Assembly: GCA_031373745.1 (NCBI GenBank)
Contig: JANMNH010000116.1
Coordinates: forward strand, 5,728-69,727
Source of the DNA: Hyphomicrobium sp.
Lineage (GTDB): Bacteria; Pseudomonadota; Alphaproteobacteria; Rhizobiales; Hyphomicrobiaceae
Direction: 5' to 3'
DNA: 64,000 bases
The position numbers and the translations under genes are program-made. Of this stretch, positions 55,212 through 64,000 are shown in pieces (the stretch's first letter is position 1; the number at the start of each line of letters is the position of its first letter). The notes beneath the pieces are model-generated. The model did no database searches, had not been told where the DNA came from, and saw nothing but the letters and a program-made list of their open reading frames with translations.

Positions 55212-56336
55212 ATGCGGATCGGCGTTCCAACGGAGATTAAAAGCAACGAGTTCCGCGTCGGGCTCGTTCCAGGTTCGGTGCGCGAACTGGCGGCGCGCGG
55301 CCACGAAGTCCTCGTCCAGTCGGGCGCCGGTGCCGGCATTTCGGCAGACGATGCAACTTATGAGAAGGCCGGCGCGCGGATTGTTCCCGACGCAGCCGCC
55401 GTGTTTCGCGACGCCGAGATGATCGTCAAGGTCAAGGAACCGCAAAAGAGCGAATACACGCGGCTCGGCTCGGATCAGATCCTGTTTACCTACCTGCATT
55501 TGGCCCCCGATCCCGAACAGGCGCGCGGCCTCATGGCGTCCGGTTGCGCGGCGATTGCTTACGAGACGGTGACCGATGCGAGCGGCGGACTGCCCTTGTT
55601 GGCCCCAATGAGCGAAGTGGCCGGGCGCTTGTCGATTGAAGCGGCTGCAATGGGCCTTCGCCGGCCCACGGGCGGACGTGGCGTATTGATGGGCGGCGTT
55701 CCAGGCGTCCGGCCTGCGAAAGTTGTCATTCTTGGTGGCGGCGTGGTTGGCACGCATGCGGCGCGCATGGCAGTTGGACTTGGCGCCGACGTTACAATTC
55801 TTGATCGCTCGCTGCCGCGTCTGCGTCAGTTGGACGAATTGTTCGAAGGCCGGGTCAAAACACTGGCCTCGACGATGGATAGCGTCGAAACGGAAGTGCT
55901 TGGTGCTGACGCGGTGATTGGTGCCGTGCTGGTCGCCGGAGCAAGCGCACCGAAGCTCGTCACGCGGGCCATGTTGAAAGAAATGAAACGCGGCGCAGTG
56001 CTGGTTGACGTGTCGATCGATCAGGGCGGGTGTTTTGAGACATCGCGGCCAACGACCCATGCCGAGCCGACGTTTGAAGTTGACGGTATCATTCACTATT
56101 GCGTCGCTAACATGCCGGGCGCCGTTCCGGTGACAAGTGCGCAAGCGTTGAACAACGCAACGCTGCCGTTTGTGATCAAGCTCGCGGAGCGCGGACTAGC
56201 GGCGTTTGATCGCGACCCGCATCTTGCTGCGGGACTAAACGTCAAAAGTGGACGCATCATGCATGCGTCGGTTGCGTCGTCGCTTGGTTTCGACAGTCTG
56301 GATGGTTCGCGCTCCTTTCGCGTCGCGGCAGAGTAA
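55212..56336 (+). CDS. ald: Alanine dehydrogenase
   Basis: 'GVPTEIKSNEFRVGL', 'FTYLHLA', 'LLAPMSEVAGR', 'DVSIDQGGCFETS', 'HYCVANMPGAVP'. Confidence 0.95.
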   Translation: MRIGVPTEIKSNEFRVGLVPGSVRELAARGHEVLVQSGAGAGISADDATYEKAGARIVPDAAAVFRDAEMIVKVKEPQKSEYTRLGSDQILFTYLHLAPDPEQARGLMASGCAAIAYETVTDASGGLPLLAPMSEVAGRLSIEAAAMGLRRPTGGRGVLMGGVPGVRPAKVVILGGGVVGTHAARMAVGLGADVTILDRSLPRLRQLDELFEGRVKTLASTMDSVETEVLGADAVIGAVLVAGASAPKLVTRAMLKEMKRGAVLVDVSIDQGGCFETSRPTTHAEPTFEVDGIIHYCVANMPGAVPVTSAQALNNATLPFVIKLAERGLAAFDRDPHLAAGLNVKSGRIMHASVASSLGFDSLDGSRSFRVAAE

Positions 56337-56576
56337 GGTCAAATAGAACCCCCGTGCCGCCGGCCAACACGCGCCCGGCACTCGCAGAAGCGCCGGGTTG
56401 CAGGAAATTGCGGTCCGGCGTTTCGCTTTTCGAGTGCTTTGGAAACTTGTCCAGCGGTGTGAGTTGTATCTATGTGCGCCACAAGTCAATTGGCGCGCGA
56501 AGCCGGAGCCGGGCGCCGATCGGCGCTCCGCCTCTGACATTTCTGATGTTTTTGGAATTGAAATCCGTACGCTGGA

Positions 56577-56840
56577 TTAGCTACGGCTTGTCTTCCCGCC
56601 CTTGGCGACGCAAGCGGACTTCGACATCATCTTGACGCCCTGGCCTTTGCACGCGTTCTGGCCCTTGCAGCCATTTCCAGTAGACTTGCAGCTGCCTGTA
56701 CCCTTGCAAGCGTTCAGGCCGAAACATTTCACCTTATAGTCGGCTGCGTGGCCCGTTGTGGGTGCCGTGATCGAACCGGCGAGCATCATCGTGGCAGCGG
56801 CGGCGGCGAGTGTAGCGCCTGATGTTTTGGTTAGTTTCAT
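56577..56840 (-). CDS. Secreted Cys-rich peptide, BufA2 (bufferin type II precursor)-like
   Basis: 87 aa with strong SD (AGGAGG), signal peptide, six Cys in 'KCFGLNACKGTGSCKSTGNGCKGQNACKGQG...SAC..KGG'. Confidence 0.8.
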   Translation of the reverse strand: MKLTKTSGATLAAAAATMMLAGSITAPTTGHAADYKVKCFGLNACKGTGSCKSTGNGCKGQNACKGQGVKMMSKSACVAKGGKTSRS

Positions 56841-56928
56841 TGTCTTCCTCCTGATGTCGGCAATGGCATGCCGTGATTTAGGCGAACCCTGCTGATCGGC
56901 TCACTCAATGAGAGTTCAGCATCAGGGG

Positions 56929-56958
56929 AGGTACGCTAGCTGTTGGTGTAAAGTTTCA
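56929..56958 (-). promoter_or_regulatory. ECF-sigma-type promoter of the BufA2-like gene
   Basis: Minus strand TGAAAC-tttacaccaacagctag-CGTACCT (AAC...CGT with 17-nt spacer); near-copy at 58837-58866. Confidence 0.7.
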
Positions 56959-57007
56959 TATTTTCTTTATCGTGCCGGGGAATCTTGATGCTTGATCGAA
57001 ATATCAC

Positions 57008-58807
57008 TCAACGCCCGGAATTTGCGCTACGGCGCACAACCCTGTTAACGGTACCGGCCAGCTCCGCGGGATCAAACACTGGCAGCGAGCAAATGCGGTC
57101 GGTGCAGGCGAAGGCTGCGGGTTCATCCAATTCAGGATACTGCACATCGGGATTTGAGAGGGCGCCTTCGCGCTTGTCCCACCAGTCAATGCGCCGGTAA
57201 TGAGCGGGGTAGGCGAGTGCTGCAGCATGGAGAGCCGCCGATTTCGGGTCGTCTTTGTGCCCGACAATAGTTATGTGCGTCGGCTCTCGAGCAAGTTCTG
57301 CATCGATCAACAGTGCGCCCGAATGCACGCTTGGCCTCTCAAGGTGATTTTCAGAAAGGGCAAAGCGGGCGGCGTGTCCGGCAAGTTCAAAGTCGTTTTT
57401 GTCGCCGGTATAGCGATGCAGGAGATTAGAAAAGCGCGCGGTTTGGATTTGTTCTTCGAGTATTTTGGCGGGACTTGCAAACACGCCGATGTTTGCCTCC
57501 GATTGAACGGACGTCAAAAGCCCTCCGGAGGGATCTTGGAGTTTGCTTGTAATGAAATCACCTGCTTCACTAGCGACGCGCATCCATTTTCTATCGCCGG
57601 TCGCAGCATAGAGTTCGAGCGCTGCTTGCCCCATTGAAAGCGTATCGCCGAGAAACGGTCCGCCGCGATCGGCATCTCCATGAGTGTAGCCGCCTCCTTC
57701 GAGCCACCGGTTCTTCACGATCCATTCTGCGGCATTTTTCGCCGCGTCGAGAGCTGCCGTGTCGCCCGTTACTGCAAAATGTGCAGCAAGGCTGCGGATC
57801 GCCCAGCCGTTCTCACGGGTATAAATGTGTTGATCGATCTTAGGTTTTTTCGGGAGGGCGTTTCGCGCGGCTTGAGATAATGCGTAGTAGGCTTTGCCTG
57901 GCATTGTCTCATCAACATCGGCATCTTGGCTAGTGAAGAACGCTCCATTTGGAGCTCGAAGAACGTCCATAAGATACTTCTTGATTGTTGCCGCCGCCTC
58001 AAGAAATCGCGGATCGCGCCATTGGGCGTAGGCTTCCGAAAACTGCCGCAAACCATTTGCCTGGTACCACATAATCTTTTCGTAGTGCGGCGACTTCCAG
58101 TCCGCCGCGTCGGAATACTGGTAGAGCCCGCCCTCAACCGTATCGATGAGGTTGAGTGCGGCGGCGAATGTTTTTTGGGCCCTTGCTGCGGCTTCTTTAT
58201 CACCATTTGCCGCGAGCGAGAATTCCCAGTCCATGCGGTCGGCATCGATAAATTTATGTACCGTGCCCCAGCCGCCAAACTCAGTGTCGAAGGCATCGAT
58301 CGTGTTTGCGGCGAGTTCGGTTCGGCTCGCGGTCAAAAGCAAATGGGACTTTGCCGGTTCGGCAGGAGGCTCGACGACGACCGAGGGGCCCGGCGTCGGG
58401 TCGGCAATGACGGCCTCAAGGAGTGCTGTCATCGCTTTGGGCTCGATGTATCCGGCGCGCTTGACGATTTCGGTGCCGTCAGGCGCAAAAATGATTGTCG
58501 CAGGCCAGCCCCAATCGCCGTACCGGTTCGACAGATCGGGGTTAGCGTCCTGATCGACGCGAACGGTTATAAATTTGGATTTGAGGAGATAAGCGACGTC
58601 CGGATCTCGATAGGTCGTTTTTTCCATGACGTGGCACCAATGGCACCAGACGGCCTCGAGATCCAGAATGACGAGCCGGTTCTCGGCCTTCGCTTTCGCG
58701 AAAAGGTCTACAGACCAAGGTTGCCAATTTAGTTCTGCCCTGGCGCGCGGTATGGGCATCAAGACGAGACAGAATAGACTAAACGCCAGAATGCGCTTCA
58801 ACCACAT
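57008..58807 (-). CDS. Secreted thioredoxin-domain protein (DUF255/YyaL/SPATA20-like: thioredoxin + alpha/alpha toroid)
   Basis: Signal peptide ending 'ARA-E'; 'WCHWCHVM' CxxC, 'VDQDANPDLSNRY..GWPATI', 'GGLYQYS', 'HYEKIMWYQA', 'FFTSQDAD'. Start placed at ATG 58807 because the ORF-track start overlaps the -10 element. Confidence 0.8.
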   Translation of the reverse strand: MWLKRILAFSLFCLVLMPIPRARAELNWQPWSVDLFAKAKAENRLVILDLEAVWCHWCHVMEKTTYRDPDVAYLLKSKFITVRVDQDANPDLSNRYGDWGWPATIIFAPDGTEIVKRAGYIEPKAMTALLEAVIADPTPGPSVVVEPPAEPAKSHLLLTASRTELAANTIDAFDTEFGGWGTVHKFIDADRMDWEFSLAANGDKEAAARAQKTFAAALNLIDTVEGGLYQYSDAADWKSPHYEKIMWYQANGLRQFSEAYAQWRDPRFLEAAATIKKYLMDVLRAPNGAFFTSQDADVDETMPGKAYYALSQAARNALPKKPKIDQHIYTRENGWAIRSLAAHFAVTGDTAALDAAKNAAEWIVKNRWLEGGGYTHGDADRGGPFLGDTLSMGQAALELYAATGDRKWMRVASEAGDFITSKLQDPSGGLLTSVQSEANIGVFASPAKILEEQIQTARFSNLLHRYTGDKNDFELAGHAARFALSENHLERPSVHSGALLIDAELAREPTHITIVGHKDDPKSAALHAAALAYPAHYRRIDWWDKREGALSNPDVQYPELDEPAAFACTDRICSLPVFDPAELAGTVNRVVRRSANSGR

Positions 58808-58836
58808 GGCATGCTGCTCCCGGTTGTTCATCGGGA

Positions 58837-58866
58837 AGGTACGCACACGTCCGGCGTAGAGTTTCA
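58837..58866 (-). promoter_or_regulatory. ECF-sigma-type promoter of the thioredoxin/YyaL-like gene
   Basis: Minus strand TGAAAC-tctacgccggacgtgtg-CGTACCT; same -35, spacer length and -10 as 56929-56958. Confidence 0.7.
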
Positions 58867-58935
58867 GGGCCCGCGAAATTATTCTTGTCTCAAGATGTTG
58901 TCACGGCAATTTGGGTTAGCGGCTCTCTAGGAAGC

Positions 58936-60441
58936 CTATTTCAGGGTTGGAAAGTTGAATTCCGCGCCCTTGCGAATTCCGGTTGGCCAGCGTGCTGTGA
59001 TGGTTTTGATACGCGTGTAAAAGCGCACGCCTTCTGGGCCATAAATCGCGTGATCTCCAAACAACGAGCGCTTCCAGCCGCCGAAGGAGTGGTACGCCAC
59101 AGGCACGGGAAGCGGCACGTTGATGCCGACCATGCCAACTTGGATCTTGTCCGCAAAAGCGCGGGCCGCGTCTCCGTCGCGCGTGAAAATTGCGGTGCCG
59201 TTGCCATATTCGTGGCTATTGATGAGATGAGCGGCTTCGTCATAGCTCCCGGTGCGCACTATTGAAAGAACAGGCCCGAAAATTTCTTCCTTGTAGATTG
59301 TCATGTCTTTTGTGACGCGATCGAACAGCGAACCGCCGAGGAAGTAACCATTCTCATACCCCTGCAATTTAAAGCCGCGGCCATCGACGACAAGATCTGC
59401 ACCTTCGTCGACGCCGAGATCGATTAAACCCGAAATGCGCCGCTTGGCTTCTGCTGTCACCACGGGCCCCATCTCGGAATCGGGGTCGGTCGCTGGGCCA
59501 ACGCGAAGCGCGCGTACTTTCGGCGCCAAGGCTTCGACCAGCCGGTTGGCAGTTTTTTCGCCAACGGGTACGGCGACGGAAATCGCCATGCAGCGTTCGC
59601 CTGCAGAACCGTATCCAGCGCCCATGAGGGCATCGACTGCCTGATCCATATCGGCATCTGGCATAACGATCATGTGGTTCTTGGCGCCGCCTAAAGCTTG
59701 CACGCGTTTTCCGGCGGTTGAGCCGCGCCGGTAGACGTATTCGGCAATTGGCGTCGAGCCGACGAAGCTGACAGCTGCGATATCGGGGTGATCTAGGATG
59801 GCATCGACGGCAATTTTGTCTCCATGCACCACGTTGAGAACGCCGTCCGGGAACCCCGCTTCCTGAAATAATTCCCAGGCCAGCATGACTGCGGACGGAT
59901 CGCGCTCCGAAGGCTTCAAGATGAACGTGTTTCCGCAAGCAACGGCGACCGGATACATCCACATTGGCACCATGGCTGGGAAATTGAATGGCGTGATGCC
60001 GGCCACGACGCCCAATGGCTGGCGATCAGACCAGCTATCGATATCGGGGCCGACGTTGCGGCTAAATTCACCCTTCAAAAGATGTGGGATGCCGCACGCA
60101 AAATCGACAACGTCGATGCCGCGCTGGAGTTCACCAAGAGCGTCCGCGTGGGTTTTGCCATGTTCCTTTGAAATGGCCCGCGCGATGTCATTAGCATGGC
60201 GCTCAAGGAGTTCTTTGAATTTGAACATCGGCTTGACGCGTTTCATGGGCGTCGTCGTGCCCCATTCAACGGACGCTTGTTTGGCAGCAGCGACGGCAGC
60301 GTTGACTTCAGCGACCTCCGAGAGCGGGAGAACGGCCGACTTTTCGCCTGTTGCGGGATTGAAAACGGACGCCGTGCGCGTTGAGGCCGACGTGACCTTG
60401 CGGCCGCCGATTCCGTTTTGGATGGTCTCGAGTGACTGCAT
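58936..60441 (-). CDS. mmsA: CoA-acylating (methyl)malonate-semialdehyde dehydrogenase
   Basis: 'GITPFNFPAMVPMW', 'KPSERDPS', 'GGAKNHMIVMPDAD', 'GSAGERCMA', 'GINVPLPVPVAYHSFGGWK'. Confidence 0.92.
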   Translation of the reverse strand: MQSLETIQNGIGGRKVTSASTRTASVFNPATGEKSAVLPLSEVAEVNAAVAAAKQASVEWGTTTPMKRVKPMFKFKELLERHANDIARAISKEHGKTHADALGELQRGIDVVDFACGIPHLLKGEFSRNVGPDIDSWSDRQPLGVVAGITPFNFPAMVPMWMYPVAVACGNTFILKPSERDPSAVMLAWELFQEAGFPDGVLNVVHGDKIAVDAILDHPDIAAVSFVGSTPIAEYVYRRGSTAGKRVQALGGAKNHMIVMPDADMDQAVDALMGAGYGSAGERCMAISVAVPVGEKTANRLVEALAPKVRALRVGPATDPDSEMGPVVTAEAKRRISGLIDLGVDEGADLVVDGRGFKLQGYENGYFLGGSLFDRVTKDMTIYKEEIFGPVLSIVRTGSYDEAAHLINSHEYGNGTAIFTRDGDAARAFADKIQVGMVGINVPLPVPVAYHSFGGWKRSLFGDHAIYGPEGVRFYTRIKTITARWPTGIRKGAEFNFPTLK

Positions 60442-60485
60442 TGGGTTCCGTTCTTGGTAGTTGATCTGTCTCGTGCGTCGCGCTG

Positions 60486-61808
60486 TTAGTTTGTTGTTTT
60501 GAAAACCATGGTCAAAGTGTCGAACAATTGATCGATCTCAGCTTTCGAAATGATCAATGGCGGCGATAGCGCAATAATGTCGCCGGTTTGACGAATGAGA
60601 AGATTGTTCTCAAAGGCCTTAACGAAGCGATCATAAGCGCGCTTTCCCGGTTCGCCGGGAGAAGGGTCAAATTCGATGGCGCCGATGAGCCCGATATTGC
60701 GGATATCGATGATGTGCGGCATCCCCTTCAAGGTGTGCAGCCGTTCTTCCCAATAGGACGAAAGCTCTGTGGCCCGCGTGAGCAAGCCCTCATCGTAATA
60801 GGTGTCGAGCGTGCCGATGGATGCCGCGCAGGCCATCGGATGGCCCGAGTACGTGTAACCGTGGAAGAAGTCGATGACGTTGTCAGGGCCGTTCATAAAG
60901 GCATCGTGGATTTTAGATGTGACGAACACGGCGCCCATAGGGATGGTTCCGTTCGTTACGCCTTTGGCCGTTGTGATGATATCGGGAGCAACACCGAAAT
61001 AGTCGGTGCCGAAAGGCGTTCCGAGCCGTCCGAAGGCTGTGATAACTTCATCGAAAATGAGCAGGATGTCGTGTTTGGCGCAGATGGCCGCGAGCCGCTT
61101 TAAGTAACCTTTGGGCGGGATGATAACGCCGGTGGAGCAAGCCACGGGTTCTACTATACAGGCTGCGATTGTGGAGGCATCATGCAATGCGACTAGGCGC
61201 TCAAGGTCATCGGCAAGGTCTGCGCCGTGCTCGGGCTCGCCGCGCGTGAAGGCGTTCTTACCGATATCGTGCGTGTGACGAATGTGATCGACGCCTGAGA
61301 GAAGCGATCCGAACATTTTGCGGTTGTTGGAAATGCCGCCGACCGCCGTGCCACCGAAATTGACGCCATGATATCCGCGTTCGCGCCCGATGAGGCGCAC
61401 TTTGCCGGCGTTACCCTTTGCGCGGTGATAGGCGAGCGCCATCTTGAGGGCGGTTTCGACCGACTCGGAACCCGAATTGGTGAAGAATACGTGGTCGAAG
61501 CCTTTGGGTGCGATGTTGACCAGGCGCGACGCACACTCGAAAGCTTTTGCATGCCCCATCTGGAATGTGCCCGCGAAGTCGAGGGTCGCTGCCTGCTTTT
61601 GGATGGCTTCGACGATTTTTGGGCGGCAGTGGCCTGCATTGACGCACCACAGTCCCGAGGTGCCGTCGAGGACGCGACGGCCGTCGTCGGTGATGTAGTG
61701 CATTCGCTCCGCGCCGACAAAGATGCGCGGGTTCTTCTTGAATTGGCGATTGGCGGTAAACGGCATCCAGAACGCCGAAAGATCATTGGTCTTATGCTGG
61801 ATATTCAT
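60486..61808 (-). CDS. bauA: Omega-amino acid:pyruvate aminotransferase (beta-alanine-pyruvate transaminase, class III PLP)
   Basis: 'FWMPFTANRQFK', 'DGTSGLWCVNAGH', 'YHGVNFGG', 'IFDEVITAFGRLG', 'AKGVTNG', 'HGYTYSGHP'. Confidence 0.88.
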   Translation of the reverse strand: MNIQHKTNDLSAFWMPFTANRQFKKNPRIFVGAERMHYITDDGRRVLDGTSGLWCVNAGHCRPKIVEAIQKQAATLDFAGTFQMGHAKAFECASRLVNIAPKGFDHVFFTNSGSESVETALKMALAYHRAKGNAGKVRLIGRERGYHGVNFGGTAVGGISNNRKMFGSLLSGVDHIRHTHDIGKNAFTRGEPEHGADLADDLERLVALHDASTIAACIVEPVACSTGVIIPPKGYLKRLAAICAKHDILLIFDEVITAFGRLGTPFGTDYFGVAPDIITTAKGVTNGTIPMGAVFVTSKIHDAFMNGPDNVIDFFHGYTYSGHPMACAASIGTLDTYYDEGLLTRATELSSYWEERLHTLKGMPHIIDIRNIGLIGAIEFDPSPGEPGKRAYDRFVKAFENNLLIRQTGDIIALSPPLIISKAEIDQLFDTLTMVFKTTN

Positions 61809-61849
61809 GATCGTTCTCCGGAATCGGATTTAAAAGTTAGCTTGAAAAT

Positions 61850-63145
61850 CTAAGAAGCGTGGCTGACGGCTTCGACAAGGCTTTCTGAGAAAATGTCCAT
61901 GCCTTCCTCGACCAAGGCGTCACTCGCGGTCAAAGGCACGAGGAAGCGAATAACATTAGAATTCGTGCCGCATGACAATAGAATAAGCCCTTTTTCGTTG
62001 GCCGTCTTCAAGAGAGCAGAGGTCAGGGTGGCATCCGGCTCACCGCTGGCGGCATTTTTCACGAGTTCAAGGGCGCACATGGCGCCGAGGCCGCGGATGT
62101 CGCCTATACAGTTGAGATTTGTGCGATCTTTTAACCGGCCAAGGCGGTCTAGGATGATGTTGCCAATTTTGTTGGAGCGATCGCAGAGTTTTTCATCCTC
62201 GATAATGTCGAGGACGGCATGTGCGGCGGCGCAAGCAAGAGGGTTTCCGGCATATGTGCCGCCAAGGCCGCCGGGATTGGCGGCATCCATCACGTCTGCA
62301 CGGCCAACGATTGCCGCGAGCGGCAGCCCGCCTGCTAGCCCTTTTGCGAGGGTGACAATGTCGGCTTTGATTTCTGCGTGCTCGAGCGCGAACATTTTCC
62401 CTGTTCGAGCAAAGCCTGTTTGAATTTCGTCGGCAATGAGCAGAATGCCGTGCTCGTTGCACAGGGTTCGCAATGCGCGCAGGAACTCGACGGGCGCGAT
62501 ATTGAAGCCGCCTTCGCCCTGCACTGGTTCGATGATAATAGCCGAAACATTTGAGGGATCGATTGAGTGTTTGAAGAGGTGCTTCAGGCTTGCCATGCTC
62601 TCTTCATTGGAGACGCCGTGATAGGCGTTTGGGAATACGGCGTTGTAAATGTCCGGCGGAAACGGACCGAAGCCTTTTTTGTATGGAACGACCTTTCCGG
62701 TGAGCGCCATGCCCATGTGCGTGCGTCCATGAAAACCGCCGCCGAACGAGATGACGCCGGAACGGCCGGTAAAGGCGCGCGCGACCTTGACTGCGTTCTC
62801 GACGGCTTCCGCGCCCGTTGAAATCAGCATTGTTTTTGCCGGTCCCTGGACCGGGGCAATGGCGTTTAGCCGCTCGGCGAGCCGGACGTAGCTCTCGTAG
62901 GGCGTCACCTGGAAGCAGACGTGGCTGAAGGATTTGAGTTGTTCCTCGACTGCGGCGACAATCTTGGGGTGCTGGTGACCGGTGTTTACGACGGCGATAC
63001 CCGCCGCAAAATCGATGTAGCGCTTGCCCTCTTCGCTCCAAATTTCGGCGTTCTTGGCGCGCTTGGCATAGATTGCGGTTGCATGACCGACGCCCCTTGG
63101 GATTGCCGCCGCTCGCCTTGCGTGAAGTTCTGCTGAGGTTGGCAT
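61850..63145 (-). CDS. gabT: 4-aminobutyrate/5-aminovalerate:2-oxoglutarate aminotransferase
   Basis: 'IDFAAGIAVVNTGH', 'STGAEAVENAVKVAR', 'EPVQGEGG', 'DEIQTGFARTG', 'AKGLAGG'. Confidence 0.9.
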   Translation of the reverse strand: MPTSAELHARRAAAIPRGVGHATAIYAKRAKNAEIWSEEGKRYIDFAAGIAVVNTGHQHPKIVAAVEEQLKSFSHVCFQVTPYESYVRLAERLNAIAPVQGPAKTMLISTGAEAVENAVKVARAFTGRSGVISFGGGFHGRTHMGMALTGKVVPYKKGFGPFPPDIYNAVFPNAYHGVSNEESMASLKHLFKHSIDPSNVSAIIIEPVQGEGGFNIAPVEFLRALRTLCNEHGILLIADEIQTGFARTGKMFALEHAEIKADIVTLAKGLAGGLPLAAIVGRADVMDAANPGGLGGTYAGNPLACAAAHAVLDIIEDEKLCDRSNKIGNIILDRLGRLKDRTNLNCIGDIRGLGAMCALELVKNAASGEPDATLTSALLKTANEKGLILLSCGTNSNVIRFLVPLTASDALVEEGMDIFSESLVEAVSHAS

Positions 63146-63159
63146 GTCGAGACGTCTCC

Positions 63160-64000
63160 TCAAGAAAAGGCTTGGATGCCGGTCTGCGCGCGGCCTAAAA
63201 TCAAGGCGTGGATGTCGTGCGTGCCTTCATACGTGTTGACAGCTTCGAGATTCATCATGTGTCTGATTACGTGATACTCGTCGGAGATTCCGTTGCCGCC
63301 GTGAATGTCGCGAGCGGCGCGCGCAATATCGAGCGCCTTGCCGCAGCTATTGCGCTTAAGAAGCGATACTGCTTCGGGTGCAAGCTGGTTGCGGTCTTTG
63401 AGGCGCGCAGCATGCAGACAAGCATGAAGTGCAAGCGTGATCTCGGTCTGCATGTCGGCCAGCTTCTTCTGGATGAGCTGGTTGGCAGCCAACGGTTGTC
63501 CGAATTGCGTACGGTCGAGCGCGTATTGCCGCGCCGCGTGCCAGCAAAATTCCGCCGCTCCAAGCGCACCCCACGCGATACCGAAACGCGCGTTGTTGAG
63601 GCAGCCGAACGGGCCTTTCAATCCTTGCACGTTTGGAAGCATGTTTTGCGCCGGCACTACAACGTTTTCCATGACGATTTGTCCGGTGACGGACGCCCGC
63701 AACGCAAACTTCCCCTCTATCTTCGGAGTGTCGAGACCTTTCATGCCGCGTTCGAGGATAAAACCGCGAATGATGCCATCGTCCGTCTTGGCCCAGACGA
63801 CAAAGACATCGGCGATGGGCGCATTCGTGATCCAGGTTTTGGATCCCGTCAGCTCGTAAGCGCCATTGACGCTCTTGGCGCGCGTCGTGAGGGCGCCTGC
63901 ATCCGATCCGTGGTCAGGTTCGGTCAGTCCAAAACATCCGATCAATTCTCCGGTTGCTAGCCGTGGAAGATACTTTTGGCGTTGCGCATCGCTGCCATAG
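63160..64000 (-). CDS. gcdH: Glutaryl-CoA dehydrogenase (5'-truncated by window edge)
   Basis: '[33 protein letters not shown]', '[11 protein letters not shown]', '[29 protein letters not shown]'; frame stays open to base 64000. Confidence 0.9.

What the first reader, a model, noticed from the sequence alone, without database searches (positions are those of the whole stretch)
56929..58866. Two near-identical ECF-sigma promoters tie the peptide and thioredoxin genes into one regulon
Seen (minus strand): TGAAAC-TTTACACCaacagctag-CGTACCT before the peptide gene and TGAAAC-TCTACGCCggacgtgtg-CGTACCT before the DUF255 gene. They share the -35, the -10, a 17-nt spacer and a TyTACrCC extension. Established: AAC...CGT is the hallmark of ECF promoters, and characterised bufferin loci are under ECF sigma control. 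No ECF gene is in the window. The second promoter also implies that the DUF255 start is downstream of the ORF-track start (likely 58807). This independent evidence makes chance adjacency of the two genes unlikely.
Basis: partly seen in the sequence, partly recalled or inferred. Interest (0 to 1): 0.68.

Follow-up and report, generated by a model that had tools for sequence, protein, structure and literature searches.

The report
Shared ECF promoters: bufferin and thioredoxin genes
Two adjacent genes, a copper-binding "bufferin" peptide precursor and a periplasmic thioredoxin-like protein, each carry the same conserved alternative-sigma-factor promoter, so they are almost certainly switched on together, probably by a redox-sensing SigK-type sigma factor rather than the one known for bufferins.

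Summary
On the minus strand, TGAAAC-N17-CGTACCT lies at 58866-58837, before the DUF255 thioredoxin-like gene, and at 56958-56929, before an 87-aa BufA2-family bufferin precursor. The shared 30-nt pattern occurs twice against 0.01 expected.

In related loci the spacers have diverged while TGAAAC and CGTA[C/A/T] stay fixed. This holds before DUF255 in about 15 distinct Hyphomicrobiales lineages and before bufA2 in five (window, L009, L010, L006, L176). One of those bufA2 genes stands alone with no DUF255 nearby. The "TyTACrCC extension" is not conserved.

No ECF sigma, MNIO or DUF2063 gene is in the window. ATG 58807 is the supported DUF255 start.

- DUF255 is a recurrent, unreported neighbour of BufA2/MNIO/DUF2063/DoxX clusters across phyla (22 of 80 DUF255 loci).
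- The motif differs from the SigF-type bufferin promoter (GTAAC..CGAA) by one base in each element.
- In three loci DUF255 sits beside a SigK-like ECF/RskA pair. The same motif also precedes trx-ccdA or ccdA operons.
- CGAAAC-N17-CGTATC is embedded in SigK-like sigma ORFs with fixed synonymous codons (Arg CGT 64/64, p=1e-56).

Verdict: a real, co-regulated ECF promoter pair. Sigma identity is inferred and no transcription start data exist.

The parts
58837..58866 (-). ECF-type promoter of the DUF255 gene: -35 TGAAAC (58866-58861), 17-nt spacer, -10 CGTACCT (58843-58837). The transcription start is predicted near 58829-58832 (inferred).
   Evidence: The -35 and -10 blocks are invariant in alignment A3 with L009, L010 and L006 while the spacer diverges. 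The same motif precedes DUF255 in about 15 distinct lineages.
58817..58821 (-). Shine-Dalgarno GGGAG, 9 nt before ATG 58807.
   Evidence: Read. The GGG is invariant across all four sequences of A3, and GGGAG is conserved in the three closer ones.
57008..58807 (-). DUF255/YyaL-like periplasmic thioredoxin-domain protein, 599 aa from ATG 58807. It has a signal peptide MWLKRILAFSLFCLVLMPIPRARA, a CHWC active-site motif, an (alpha/alpha)6-like C-terminal part, and a conserved C-terminal Cys pair.
   Evidence: Pfam PF03190 at 6.4e-25, plus Thioredoxin_7 and Thioredoxin_2. The database copy P0001 is 599 aa. C55, C58, C568 and C573 are invariant in A1. PDB 7tkv and 3ira are the nearest solved relatives.
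56929..56958 (-). ECF-type promoter of the bufferin precursor gene: -35 TGAAAC (56958-56953), 17-nt spacer, -10 CGTACCT (56935-56929).
   Evidence: It is conserved before bufA2 in L009, L010 and L006 and before the stand-alone bufA2 of L176-L178.
56841..56928 (-). About 88-nt leader between the -10 element and the bufA2 ATG, with AGGAGG at 56852-56847. It is well conserved among close relatives, and a predicted hairpin has only weak covariation support.
   Evidence: Alignment A4. RNAalifold gives -9.45 kcal/mol, with 2 of 18 pairs showing compensatory changes.
56577..56840 (-). bufA2: an 87-aa BufA2 / Buf_6/12Cys bufferin precursor with a Sec signal peptide and a core of six Cys.
   Evidence: NCBIfam NF050166 Cu_RiPP_BufA2 at 83.7 bits against a cut-off of 60. 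There is no Pfam hit. Close relatives are transcribed in a metatranscriptome.

Best explanation
Both elements are working promoters for one extracytoplasmic-function (ECF) sigma factor that is encoded outside the window. RNA polymerase carrying this sigma would bind -35 (T/C)GAAAC and -10 CGTA(C/T/A), 17 nt apart.

It would start transcription a few bases downstream. One mRNA would have a short leader to ATG 58807 of the periplasmic thioredoxin-like DUF255 protein. The other would have a leader of about 88 nt to the BufA2 bufferin precursor. No terminator lies between the genes, so bufA2 probably also receives read-through from the DUF255 promoter.

The two genes are the local remnant of a widespread module: DUF255, bufA2, MNIO, DUF2063, and sometimes DoxX and CcdA. 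In this lineage the MNIO and DUF2063 modification genes are not nearby.

The cognate sigma is most likely a SigK-like ECF with an RskA-type membrane anti-sigma (ECF18/19 clade). It is probably not the SigF/NrsF pair that controls the characterised bufferins.

The inferred output is a periplasmic thiol and copper stress response. In it, a CcdA-fed thioredoxin-like protein and a Cys-rich metallophore are induced together.

Shown: the sequence, its conservation, the gene associations, and the embedded motif in sigma genes. Inferred: promoter activity, the transcription start sites, the sigma identity, the signal, and the biochemical role of DUF255.
For: 1. Two perfect copies against 0.01 expected.

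2. Footprint pattern. The -35 and -10 are invariant and the spacers diverge before DUF255 and before bufA2 in loci at 83%, 80% and 64% identity, including one with entirely different flanks.

3. The motif lies 50-110 nt before DUF255 in L008, L011, L016, L017, L019, L020, L022, L035, L041, L057 and L169. The chance rate of the core motif is roughly 1 per 50 kb.

4. A stand-alone bufA2 (72% identity) has TTGAAAC-N17-CGTACCT just after the terminator of the preceding gene.

5. No sigma-70-like promoter is found in 56300-59000.

6. DUF255 is linked to buf genes in 24 of 80 loci. Examples are bufA2-MNIO-DUF2063-DUF255 in L051 and DUF255-bufA2-MNIO-DUF2063 in L037 and L020.

7. Sigma identity.
- L016 and L169 have DUF255 divergent from a SigK-like sigma, an RskA_C anti-sigma and, in L016, a DoxX_2 gene. 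In L016 the two motif copies are back to back.
- In L019 the sigma-RskA pair is directly upstream of the motif and DUF255.
- The motif also precedes trx-ccdA in L169 and ccdA in Bradyrhizobium L012 and L015.
- CGAAAC-N17-CGTATC is embedded in SigK-like sigma ORFs with fixed synonymous codons: CGT 64/64 (p=1e-56), AAA 58/65, GCG 47/47 and TTG 42/56.
- Of 45 strict motif hits in 699 kb around such genes, 44 are that in-ORF site.

8. Literature.
- The published ECF18 -10 consensus is CGTAT (PMC13492112).
- Mycobacterial SigK-RskA controls dipZ, a CcdA-family protein with a thioredoxin-like domain (PMC9861118).
- ECF18/19 members are described as redox-sensing (PMC7826278).
Against: There is no transcription start or expression data for this organism. 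Only DNA metagenomes and one small metatranscriptome contig within the coding region were found.

The cognate sigma is not in the window, and the rest of the source genome could not be searched.

The published ECF18 -35 consensus (GCATCC) does not match GAAAC.

SigK-like sigma genes at 60-64% identity (L170-L172) have neither DUF255 nearby nor the motif upstream. The 78 distant homologues with enough upstream sequence lack an upstream copy, apart from one near-match. A conventional autoregulatory promoter is therefore seen clearly only in L016. That the in-ORF element is a promoter is itself an inference.

Characterised bufferin operons use SigF-type sigmas. A Deltaproteobacteria-labelled MAG (L060) has a SigF-type motif before DUF255.
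Confidence: 0.75

Rival explanations
1. The promoters are real, but they are read by a SigF/NrsF-type (ECF16) sigma, as in Caulobacter, Sinorhizobium and Brucella. On this view GAAAC..CGTA is a lineage-specific drift of GTAAC..CGAA.
For: Characterised bufferin operons are SigF- or RpoE7-dependent. The geometry is identical (a five-base -35 core, 17 nt, a four-base -10 core), with only one base different in each element. L060 has TGTAACC-N16-CGAAT before DUF255, and the Bradyrhizobium loci have GTAACA-N16-CGAA before doxX-DUF255-bufA2.
Against: The variant bases (A in -35, T in -10) are fixed across all Hyphomicrobiales instances. That argues for a distinct specificity rather than drift.

Both motif types co-exist at different promoters of the same Bradyrhizobium loci.

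No sigma paired with an NrsF-type anti-sigma turned up next to any GAAAC/CGTA promoter, whereas SigK-like/RskA pairs did in three loci.

The exact GAAAC-N17-CGTA is embedded in SigK-like genes under nucleotide-level selection.
Confidence: 0.17
2. The conserved bipartite motif is an operator for a DNA-binding regulator, or some other non-promoter element, and transcription starts elsewhere.
For: No transcription start data exist. The in-ORF copies inside sigma genes are an odd place for a promoter and could hint at another function.
Against: The motif has the canonical ECF architecture: AAC in the -35, CGT in the -10, and a spacing of 16-17 nt. It always faces the downstream gene at promoter-like distances of 25-120 nt. 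It is not palindromic. No alternative sigma-70-like promoter is detectable.
Confidence: 0.05
3. The similarity is chance, or a recent local duplication, with no regulatory meaning.
For: The shared 'TyTACrCC' spacer bases could suggest a duplicated segment in this genome.
Against: Two hits against 0.01 expected. Conservation holds across many genomes with diverged spacers.
Confidence: 0.02

Closest known systems
SigF/NrsF (ECF16)-controlled bufferin operons: Caulobacter buf1 and buf2, S. meliloti RpoE7 with SMb20530-27
   Same: An ECF sigma drives a signal-peptide-bearing Cys-rich bufferin precursor. The promoter geometry is the same (xGxAAC-N17-CGxA). The function is tied to copper and metal stress.
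   Different: The motif is GAAAC/CGTA, not GTAAC/CGAA. No MNIO, DUF2063, sigF or nrsF gene is nearby. The co-regulated partner is a DUF255 thioredoxin-like protein. The associated sigma is SigK-like with an RskA anti-sigma. The literature reports no sigma genes in Buf2 clusters and does not mention DUF255.
SigK-RskA regulon of mycobacteria (ECF18/19 clade)
   Same: The sigma genes next to DUF255 in L016, L019 and L169 score best against the SigK-type NCBIfam models and are followed by RskA_C anti-sigmas. The mycobacterial regulon includes dipZ, a CcdA-family protein with a thioredoxin-like domain. This parallels the trx-ccdA, ccdA and DUF255 targets here. The -10 CGTAT matches the ECF18 consensus.
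   Different: The -35 is GAAAC rather than GCATCC. The targets include a bufferin. The organisms are Alphaproteobacteria. All NCBIfam scores are below the family cut-offs, so group membership is not established.
BcrS/AbcS-bcrXQP of Brucella and other periplasmic oxidative-stress ECF regulons
   Same: A small ECF regulon made of a secreted small peptide plus periplasmic redox-repair proteins.
   Different: The Brucella motif is of the SigF type (TGTAACC..CGAA), and its effectors are of the MsrPQ type, not DUF255 and bufferin.

Membership tests
ECF sigma-dependent promoter | -35 containing AAC and -10 containing CGT, 16-18 nt apart, oriented toward a downstream gene. | tested here: met
   TGAAAC-N17-CGTACCT occurs twice, each upstream of and facing its gene.
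ECF sigma-dependent promoter | Conservation of the two boxes, but not the spacer, in orthologous upstream regions. | tested here: met
ECF sigma-dependent promoter | A transcription start a few nt downstream of the -10 that depends on the sigma. | not testable with these tools
   No RNA data with 5' ends are available for this or a near-identical organism.
SigF/NrsF (ECF16) regulon | Promoter GTAACC-N16-CGAA (PMC3511200). | tested here: not met
   Both window promoters have GAAAC and CGTA. The deviating bases are conserved in relatives.
SigF/NrsF (ECF16) regulon | sigF-nrsF genes linked to the target cluster. | tested here: not met
   No ECF gene is in the window. The ECF genes found next to GAAAC/CGTA promoters are paired with RskA_C anti-sigmas, not NrsF-type ones.
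SigK/RskA-type (ECF18/19 clade) regulon | A cognate SigK-like sigma with an RskA anti-sigma genetically linked to the targets. | tested here: inconclusive
   Linked in L016, L019 and L169 but absent from the window. L170-L172 have the sigma without DUF255.
SigK/RskA-type (ECF18/19 clade) regulon | Promoter matches the group consensus (ECF18: GCATCC / CGTAT). | tested here: inconclusive
   The -10 matches and the -35 does not. However, GAAAC-N17-CGTATC is embedded in 44 of 80 distant and 7 of 7 closer SigK-like genes under synonymous-site constraint.
BufA2 / Buf_6/12Cys bufferin precursor | Family profile match above the curated cut-off, a Sec signal peptide, and six conserved Cys. | tested here: met
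   NF050166 scores 83.7 bits against a cut-off of 60. The signal peptide and six Cys were read in the translation.
BufA2 / Buf_6/12Cys bufferin precursor | Genetic association with MNIO (DUF692) and DUF2063 modification genes. | tested here: not met
   None is in the 64-kb window or in L002, L006 or L009. They are present in related clusters L012-L015, L020, L037 and L051. The literature notes many precursors unlinked to MNIO.
DUF255 / YyaL (Thioredox_DsbH) family | A PF03190 thioredoxin-fold N-domain with a CxxC motif, plus an (alpha/alpha)6-like C-terminal part. | tested here: met
   PF03190 at 6.4e-25, with weak GH127/GH88-like hits. CHWC is invariant. PDB 7tkv and 3ira match.

The most novel reading that the evidence does not exclude
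A previously undescribed SigK/RskA-type redox ECF regulon couples a CcdA-fed periplasmic thioredoxin-like protein (DUF255, a hitherto unnoticed accessory of Buf2 bufferin clusters across phyla) to bufferin production. In addition, SigK-like sigma genes across phyla carry a copy of their own promoter inside their coding region (codons for AKLFGVxLRIL), maintained by selection on synonymous sites. This would be an in-ORF autoregulatory element, for example driving anti-sigma expression or causing transcriptional interference.
Probability: 0.4. Interest if true: 0.8.

Novelty: new variant of a known kind. Interest (0 to 1): 0.62.

Why it matters
Bufferins are a recently discovered and very large family of copper-binding RiPPs. 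Their regulation is known only for SigF-type sigmas, and published surveys report no sigma factors and no conserved accessory genes for Buf2 clusters.

This locus shows a second regulatory route through a distinct, conserved ECF promoter. It also points to a conserved partner, DUF255, a thioredoxin-like protein of unknown function that is found with CcdA and DoxX. That gives DUF255 a testable role in the thiol and redox handling of Cys-rich metallophores.

The promoter motif defined here can be used to mine regulons. The embedded copy inside SigK-like sigma genes, if functional, would be an unusual autoregulatory design in a widespread sigma family that includes mycobacterial SigK.

Tried and rejected
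- Exact-protein look-up of the window's DUF255 returned nothing. The peptide was found only on a 1.2-kb contig.
- RNA evidence was not informative. Only DNA metagenomes hold the locus. Two small RNA runs gave one 246-nt contig inside bufA2 and no 5' ends.
- The metagenome scan with the SigK-like sigma returned only distant relatives at 35-45% identity. These lacked the motif upstream, apart from one near-match. A dyad enumeration on their upstream regions gave nothing related.
- The Veyrier 2008 paper, wanted for the SigK consensus, is not held. The ECF classification supplements are not held either.
- The bufA2 leader hairpin has weak covariation support, so I make no claim about it.
- The 'TyTACrCC extension' is rejected as part of the element.
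- The ECF/zf-HC2 pair in L025 next to bufA2 was considered as the cognate sigma. It was set aside because the region before that bufA2 lacks the motif on direct reading. Only its DUF255 keeps a near-variant, TGAAAAC..CGTACCT.
Full report
**Observation**

On the minus strand, TGAAAC (58866-58861), a 17-nt spacer and CGTACCT (58843-58837) precede the long ORF 57008..58846. An identical -35, spacing and -10 (56958-56953 and 56935-56929) precede the 87-aa ORF 56577..56840.

The bare core GAAAC-N17-CGTA has no other perfect match in 64 kb. One-mismatch matches are at chance, 13 against 12.3. No sigma-70-like promoter and no terminator separates the genes.

**The genes**

The peptide scores 83.7 bits on NCBIfam NF050166, 'BufA2 family periplasmic bufferin-type metallophore', against a cut-off of 60. 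It has a signal peptide and six Cys.

The large protein has a PF03190 (DUF255/Thioredox_DsbH) thioredoxin domain with an invariant CHWC motif. Its C-terminal part is six-hairpin-like, and a second Cys pair is invariant.

The database version starts at ATG 58807. That ATG and a GGGAG 9 nt upstream are conserved in close relatives. The in-frame ATG at 58831 reads ATA in L010. The GTG at 58846 abuts the -10 element.

**Are the motifs functional?**

Related contigs at 83% (L002/L009), 80% (L003-5/L010) and 64% identity (L006/7, which have unrelated flanking genes) keep the DUF255 and 87-aa peptide pair. They keep TGAAAC-N17-CGTA[C/A][C/T]T before both genes, although the spacers differ at most positions. 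This is the footprint expected of a bipartite promoter. It also shows that the 'TyTACrCC extension' is not part of the element.

A scan of 185,579 species genomes with a DUF255 profile gave 80 loci. GAAAC-N16/17-CGTA lies 50-110 nt before the DUF255 start in:
- Hyphomicrobium
- Beijerinckiaceae
- Methyloceanibacter
- other Hyphomicrobiales or unclassified alphaproteobacterial MAGs

Counting the loci fetched by exact-protein look-up (L006, L008, L169), this is about 15 distinct lineages. The motif is absent before DUF255 outside this group.

A stand-alone bufA2 (72% identity, no DUF255 within 8 kb) has TTGAAAC-N17-CGTACCT directly after the terminator of the upstream gene. The element therefore travels with each gene independently. 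That is what a regulon predicts.

**The gene pair is part of a wider module**

A local BufA2 profile finds precursors within a few kb of DUF255 in 22 of the 80 loci. These come from:
- Bradyrhizobium
- Beijerinckiaceae
- Nevskia and other Gammaproteobacteria
- Acidobacteriota
- Verrucomicrobiota
- Planctomycetota

Pfam confirms operon-like arrangements:
- bufA2-MNIO-DUF2063-DUF255 in L051 (Granulicella)
- DUF255-bufA2-MNIO-DUF2063 in L037 and L020
- doxX-DUF255-bufA2-bufA2-MNIO-DUF2063 in L012-L015
- DUF2063-doxX-DUF255 in L076

The window lineage keeps only DUF255 and bufA2. No MNIO, DUF2063 or DoxX gene is in the window.

The two survey papers on bufferins and MNIO clusters do not mention DUF255 or thioredoxin. 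They state that sigma genes occur in Buf1 but not Buf2 clusters, and that other conserved genes are very rare. Their 10-bp intergenic criterion would have missed DUF255.

**Which sigma?**

Characterised bufferin operons use SigF-type sigmas:
- GTAACC-N16-CGAA in Caulobacter
- TGTAAC-N17-CGAAT for RpoE7 and SMb20530 in S. meliloti
- TGTAACC..CGAA for Brucella BcrS, which controls a non-bufferin operon

The window motif has the same geometry but differs by one base in each box. Those differences are fixed in every relative.

In the Bradyrhizobium loci both types co-exist. A SigF-type motif lies about 100 nt before doxX-DUF255-bufA2. GAAAC-N17-CGTAC lies about 45 nt before an upstream ccdA gene. 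The two motifs therefore look like two separate specificities.

ECF genes found beside GAAAC/CGTA promoters are SigK-like with RskA_C anti-sigmas:
- In L016 the sigma-rskA-doxX_2 operon is divergent from DUF255, with back-to-back TGAAAC-N17-CGTA[C/T] promoters.
- L169 (sigma 84% identical to that of L016) has the same divergent layout. It has the motif before DUF255 and again 40 nt before a thioredoxin-ccdA operon.
- In L019 the sigma-rskA pair sits directly upstream of the motif and DUF255.

**An unexpected link**

The codons for A-K-L-F/Y-G-V-x-L-R-I-L in region 2.1 of SigK-like sigmas spell CGAAAC-N17-CGTATCTTG.

In 65 unique genes (mean GC3 0.74), synonymous choices at the motif positions are nearly fixed while the spacer codons vary freely:
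- Arg is CGT in 64 of 64, against 11% elsewhere in the same genes (p=1e-56).
- Lys is AAA in 58 of 65, against 29% elsewhere (p=1.5e-20).
- The preceding Ala is GCG in 47 of 47 (p=3e-19).
- The following Leu is TTG in 42 of 56, against 16% elsewhere (p=7e-21).

Of 45 strict motif hits in 699 kb around these genes, 44 are this in-ORF site, where about 1.3 hits are expected by chance. The peptide patterns used to fetch these loci lie elsewhere in the protein, so the result is not a selection artefact.

This ties the GAAAC/CGTA motif to the SigK/RskA family. It also suggests an embedded autoregulatory element whose mechanism is open.

The literature fits:
- The ECF18 -10 consensus is CGTAT, although its -35 is GCATCC.
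- ECF18/19 sigmas with RskA are described as redox-sensing.
- Mycobacterial SigK controls dipZ, a CcdA-family protein with a thioredoxin-like domain.

**Limits**

- No transcription start or expression data exist for this organism.
- The sigma gene is not in the window, and the source genome could not be scanned.
- SigK-like genes at 60-64% identity lack nearby DUF255 or an upstream motif.
- Promoter function of the in-ORF element is inferred.

**Verdict**

The likely regulator is a SigK/RskA-type ECF (about 0.6) rather than SigF/NrsF (about 0.17). This is a new variant of ECF-controlled bufferin loci, with a newly recognised thioredoxin-like partner.

Noticed in passing
L016:9490-9530 (- strand), L019:8605-8645, L169:6380-6420, L170-L174, and 44 of L089-L168: SigK-like ECF sigma genes carry CGAAAC-N17-CGTATCTTG inside their ORF, in the codons for AKLFGVxLRIL. 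Synonymous codons at the motif positions are essentially fixed: CGT 64/64, AAA 58/65, GCG 47/47 and TTG 42/56. Of 45 strict motif hits in 699 kb around these genes, 44 are this site. It may be an in-ORF autoregulatory promoter.
   Followed up: partly
L012-L015, L020, L029, L034, L036, L037, L040, L051, L062, L076, L079 (within about 4 kb of the DUF255 gene): DUF255/YyaL-like thioredoxin proteins are recurrent members or neighbours of BufA2-MNIO-DUF2063(-DoxX) bufferin clusters in Alphaproteobacteria, Gammaproteobacteria, Acidobacteriota, Verrucomicrobiota and Planctomycetota. The bufferin and MNIO survey papers read here do not mention this.
   Followed up: partly
L012:8443-9300, L015:8424-9270, L013:9290-9410: Bradyrhizobium-type loci carry both ECF motif types. 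GAAAC-N17-CGTAC lies before a CcdA/DsbD-like gene. SigF-type GTAACA-N16-CGAA lies before doxX-DUF255-bufA2-bufA2-MNIO-DUF2063. In L013 the two appear in tandem.
   Followed up: partly
L025:7311-9199: A different ECF sigma (209 aa) and a zf-HC2 anti-sigma sit directly upstream of a bufA2 gene in a Hyphomicrobium MAG, with a different upstream sequence. This contrasts with the published statement that Buf2 clusters lack sigma genes.
   Followed up: no
window 56841-56928 (- strand): The leader of about 88 nt of bufA2 is well conserved among close relatives and can form a hairpin (CUGAUGCUG...CAGCAG, with an inner CUCUCA/UGAGUG stem). Covariation support is weak: 2 of 18 pairs.
   Followed up: partly
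window 56538-56764: A 246-nt contig from a small metatranscriptome run covers a near-identical bufA2 coding region (8 differences over 227 aligned nt). Close relatives of the peptide gene are therefore transcribed in the environment.
   Followed up: no
L060:9875-9905: A Deltaproteobacteria-labelled MAG has a canonical SigF-type promoter (TGTAACC-N16-CGAAT) 11 nt before the called DUF255 start. DUF255 seems to be ECF-controlled in distant lineages through different sigma types.
   Followed up: no
window 58936-63945 (- strand) and 55212-56336 (+): The pair is inserted between a conserved aldehyde dehydrogenase / two aminotransferase / acyl-CoA dehydrogenase cluster and a convergent alanine dehydrogenase with an AsnC-type regulator. 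In L006 the same pair sits in entirely different surroundings, so it behaves as a mobile two-gene unit.
   Followed up: no
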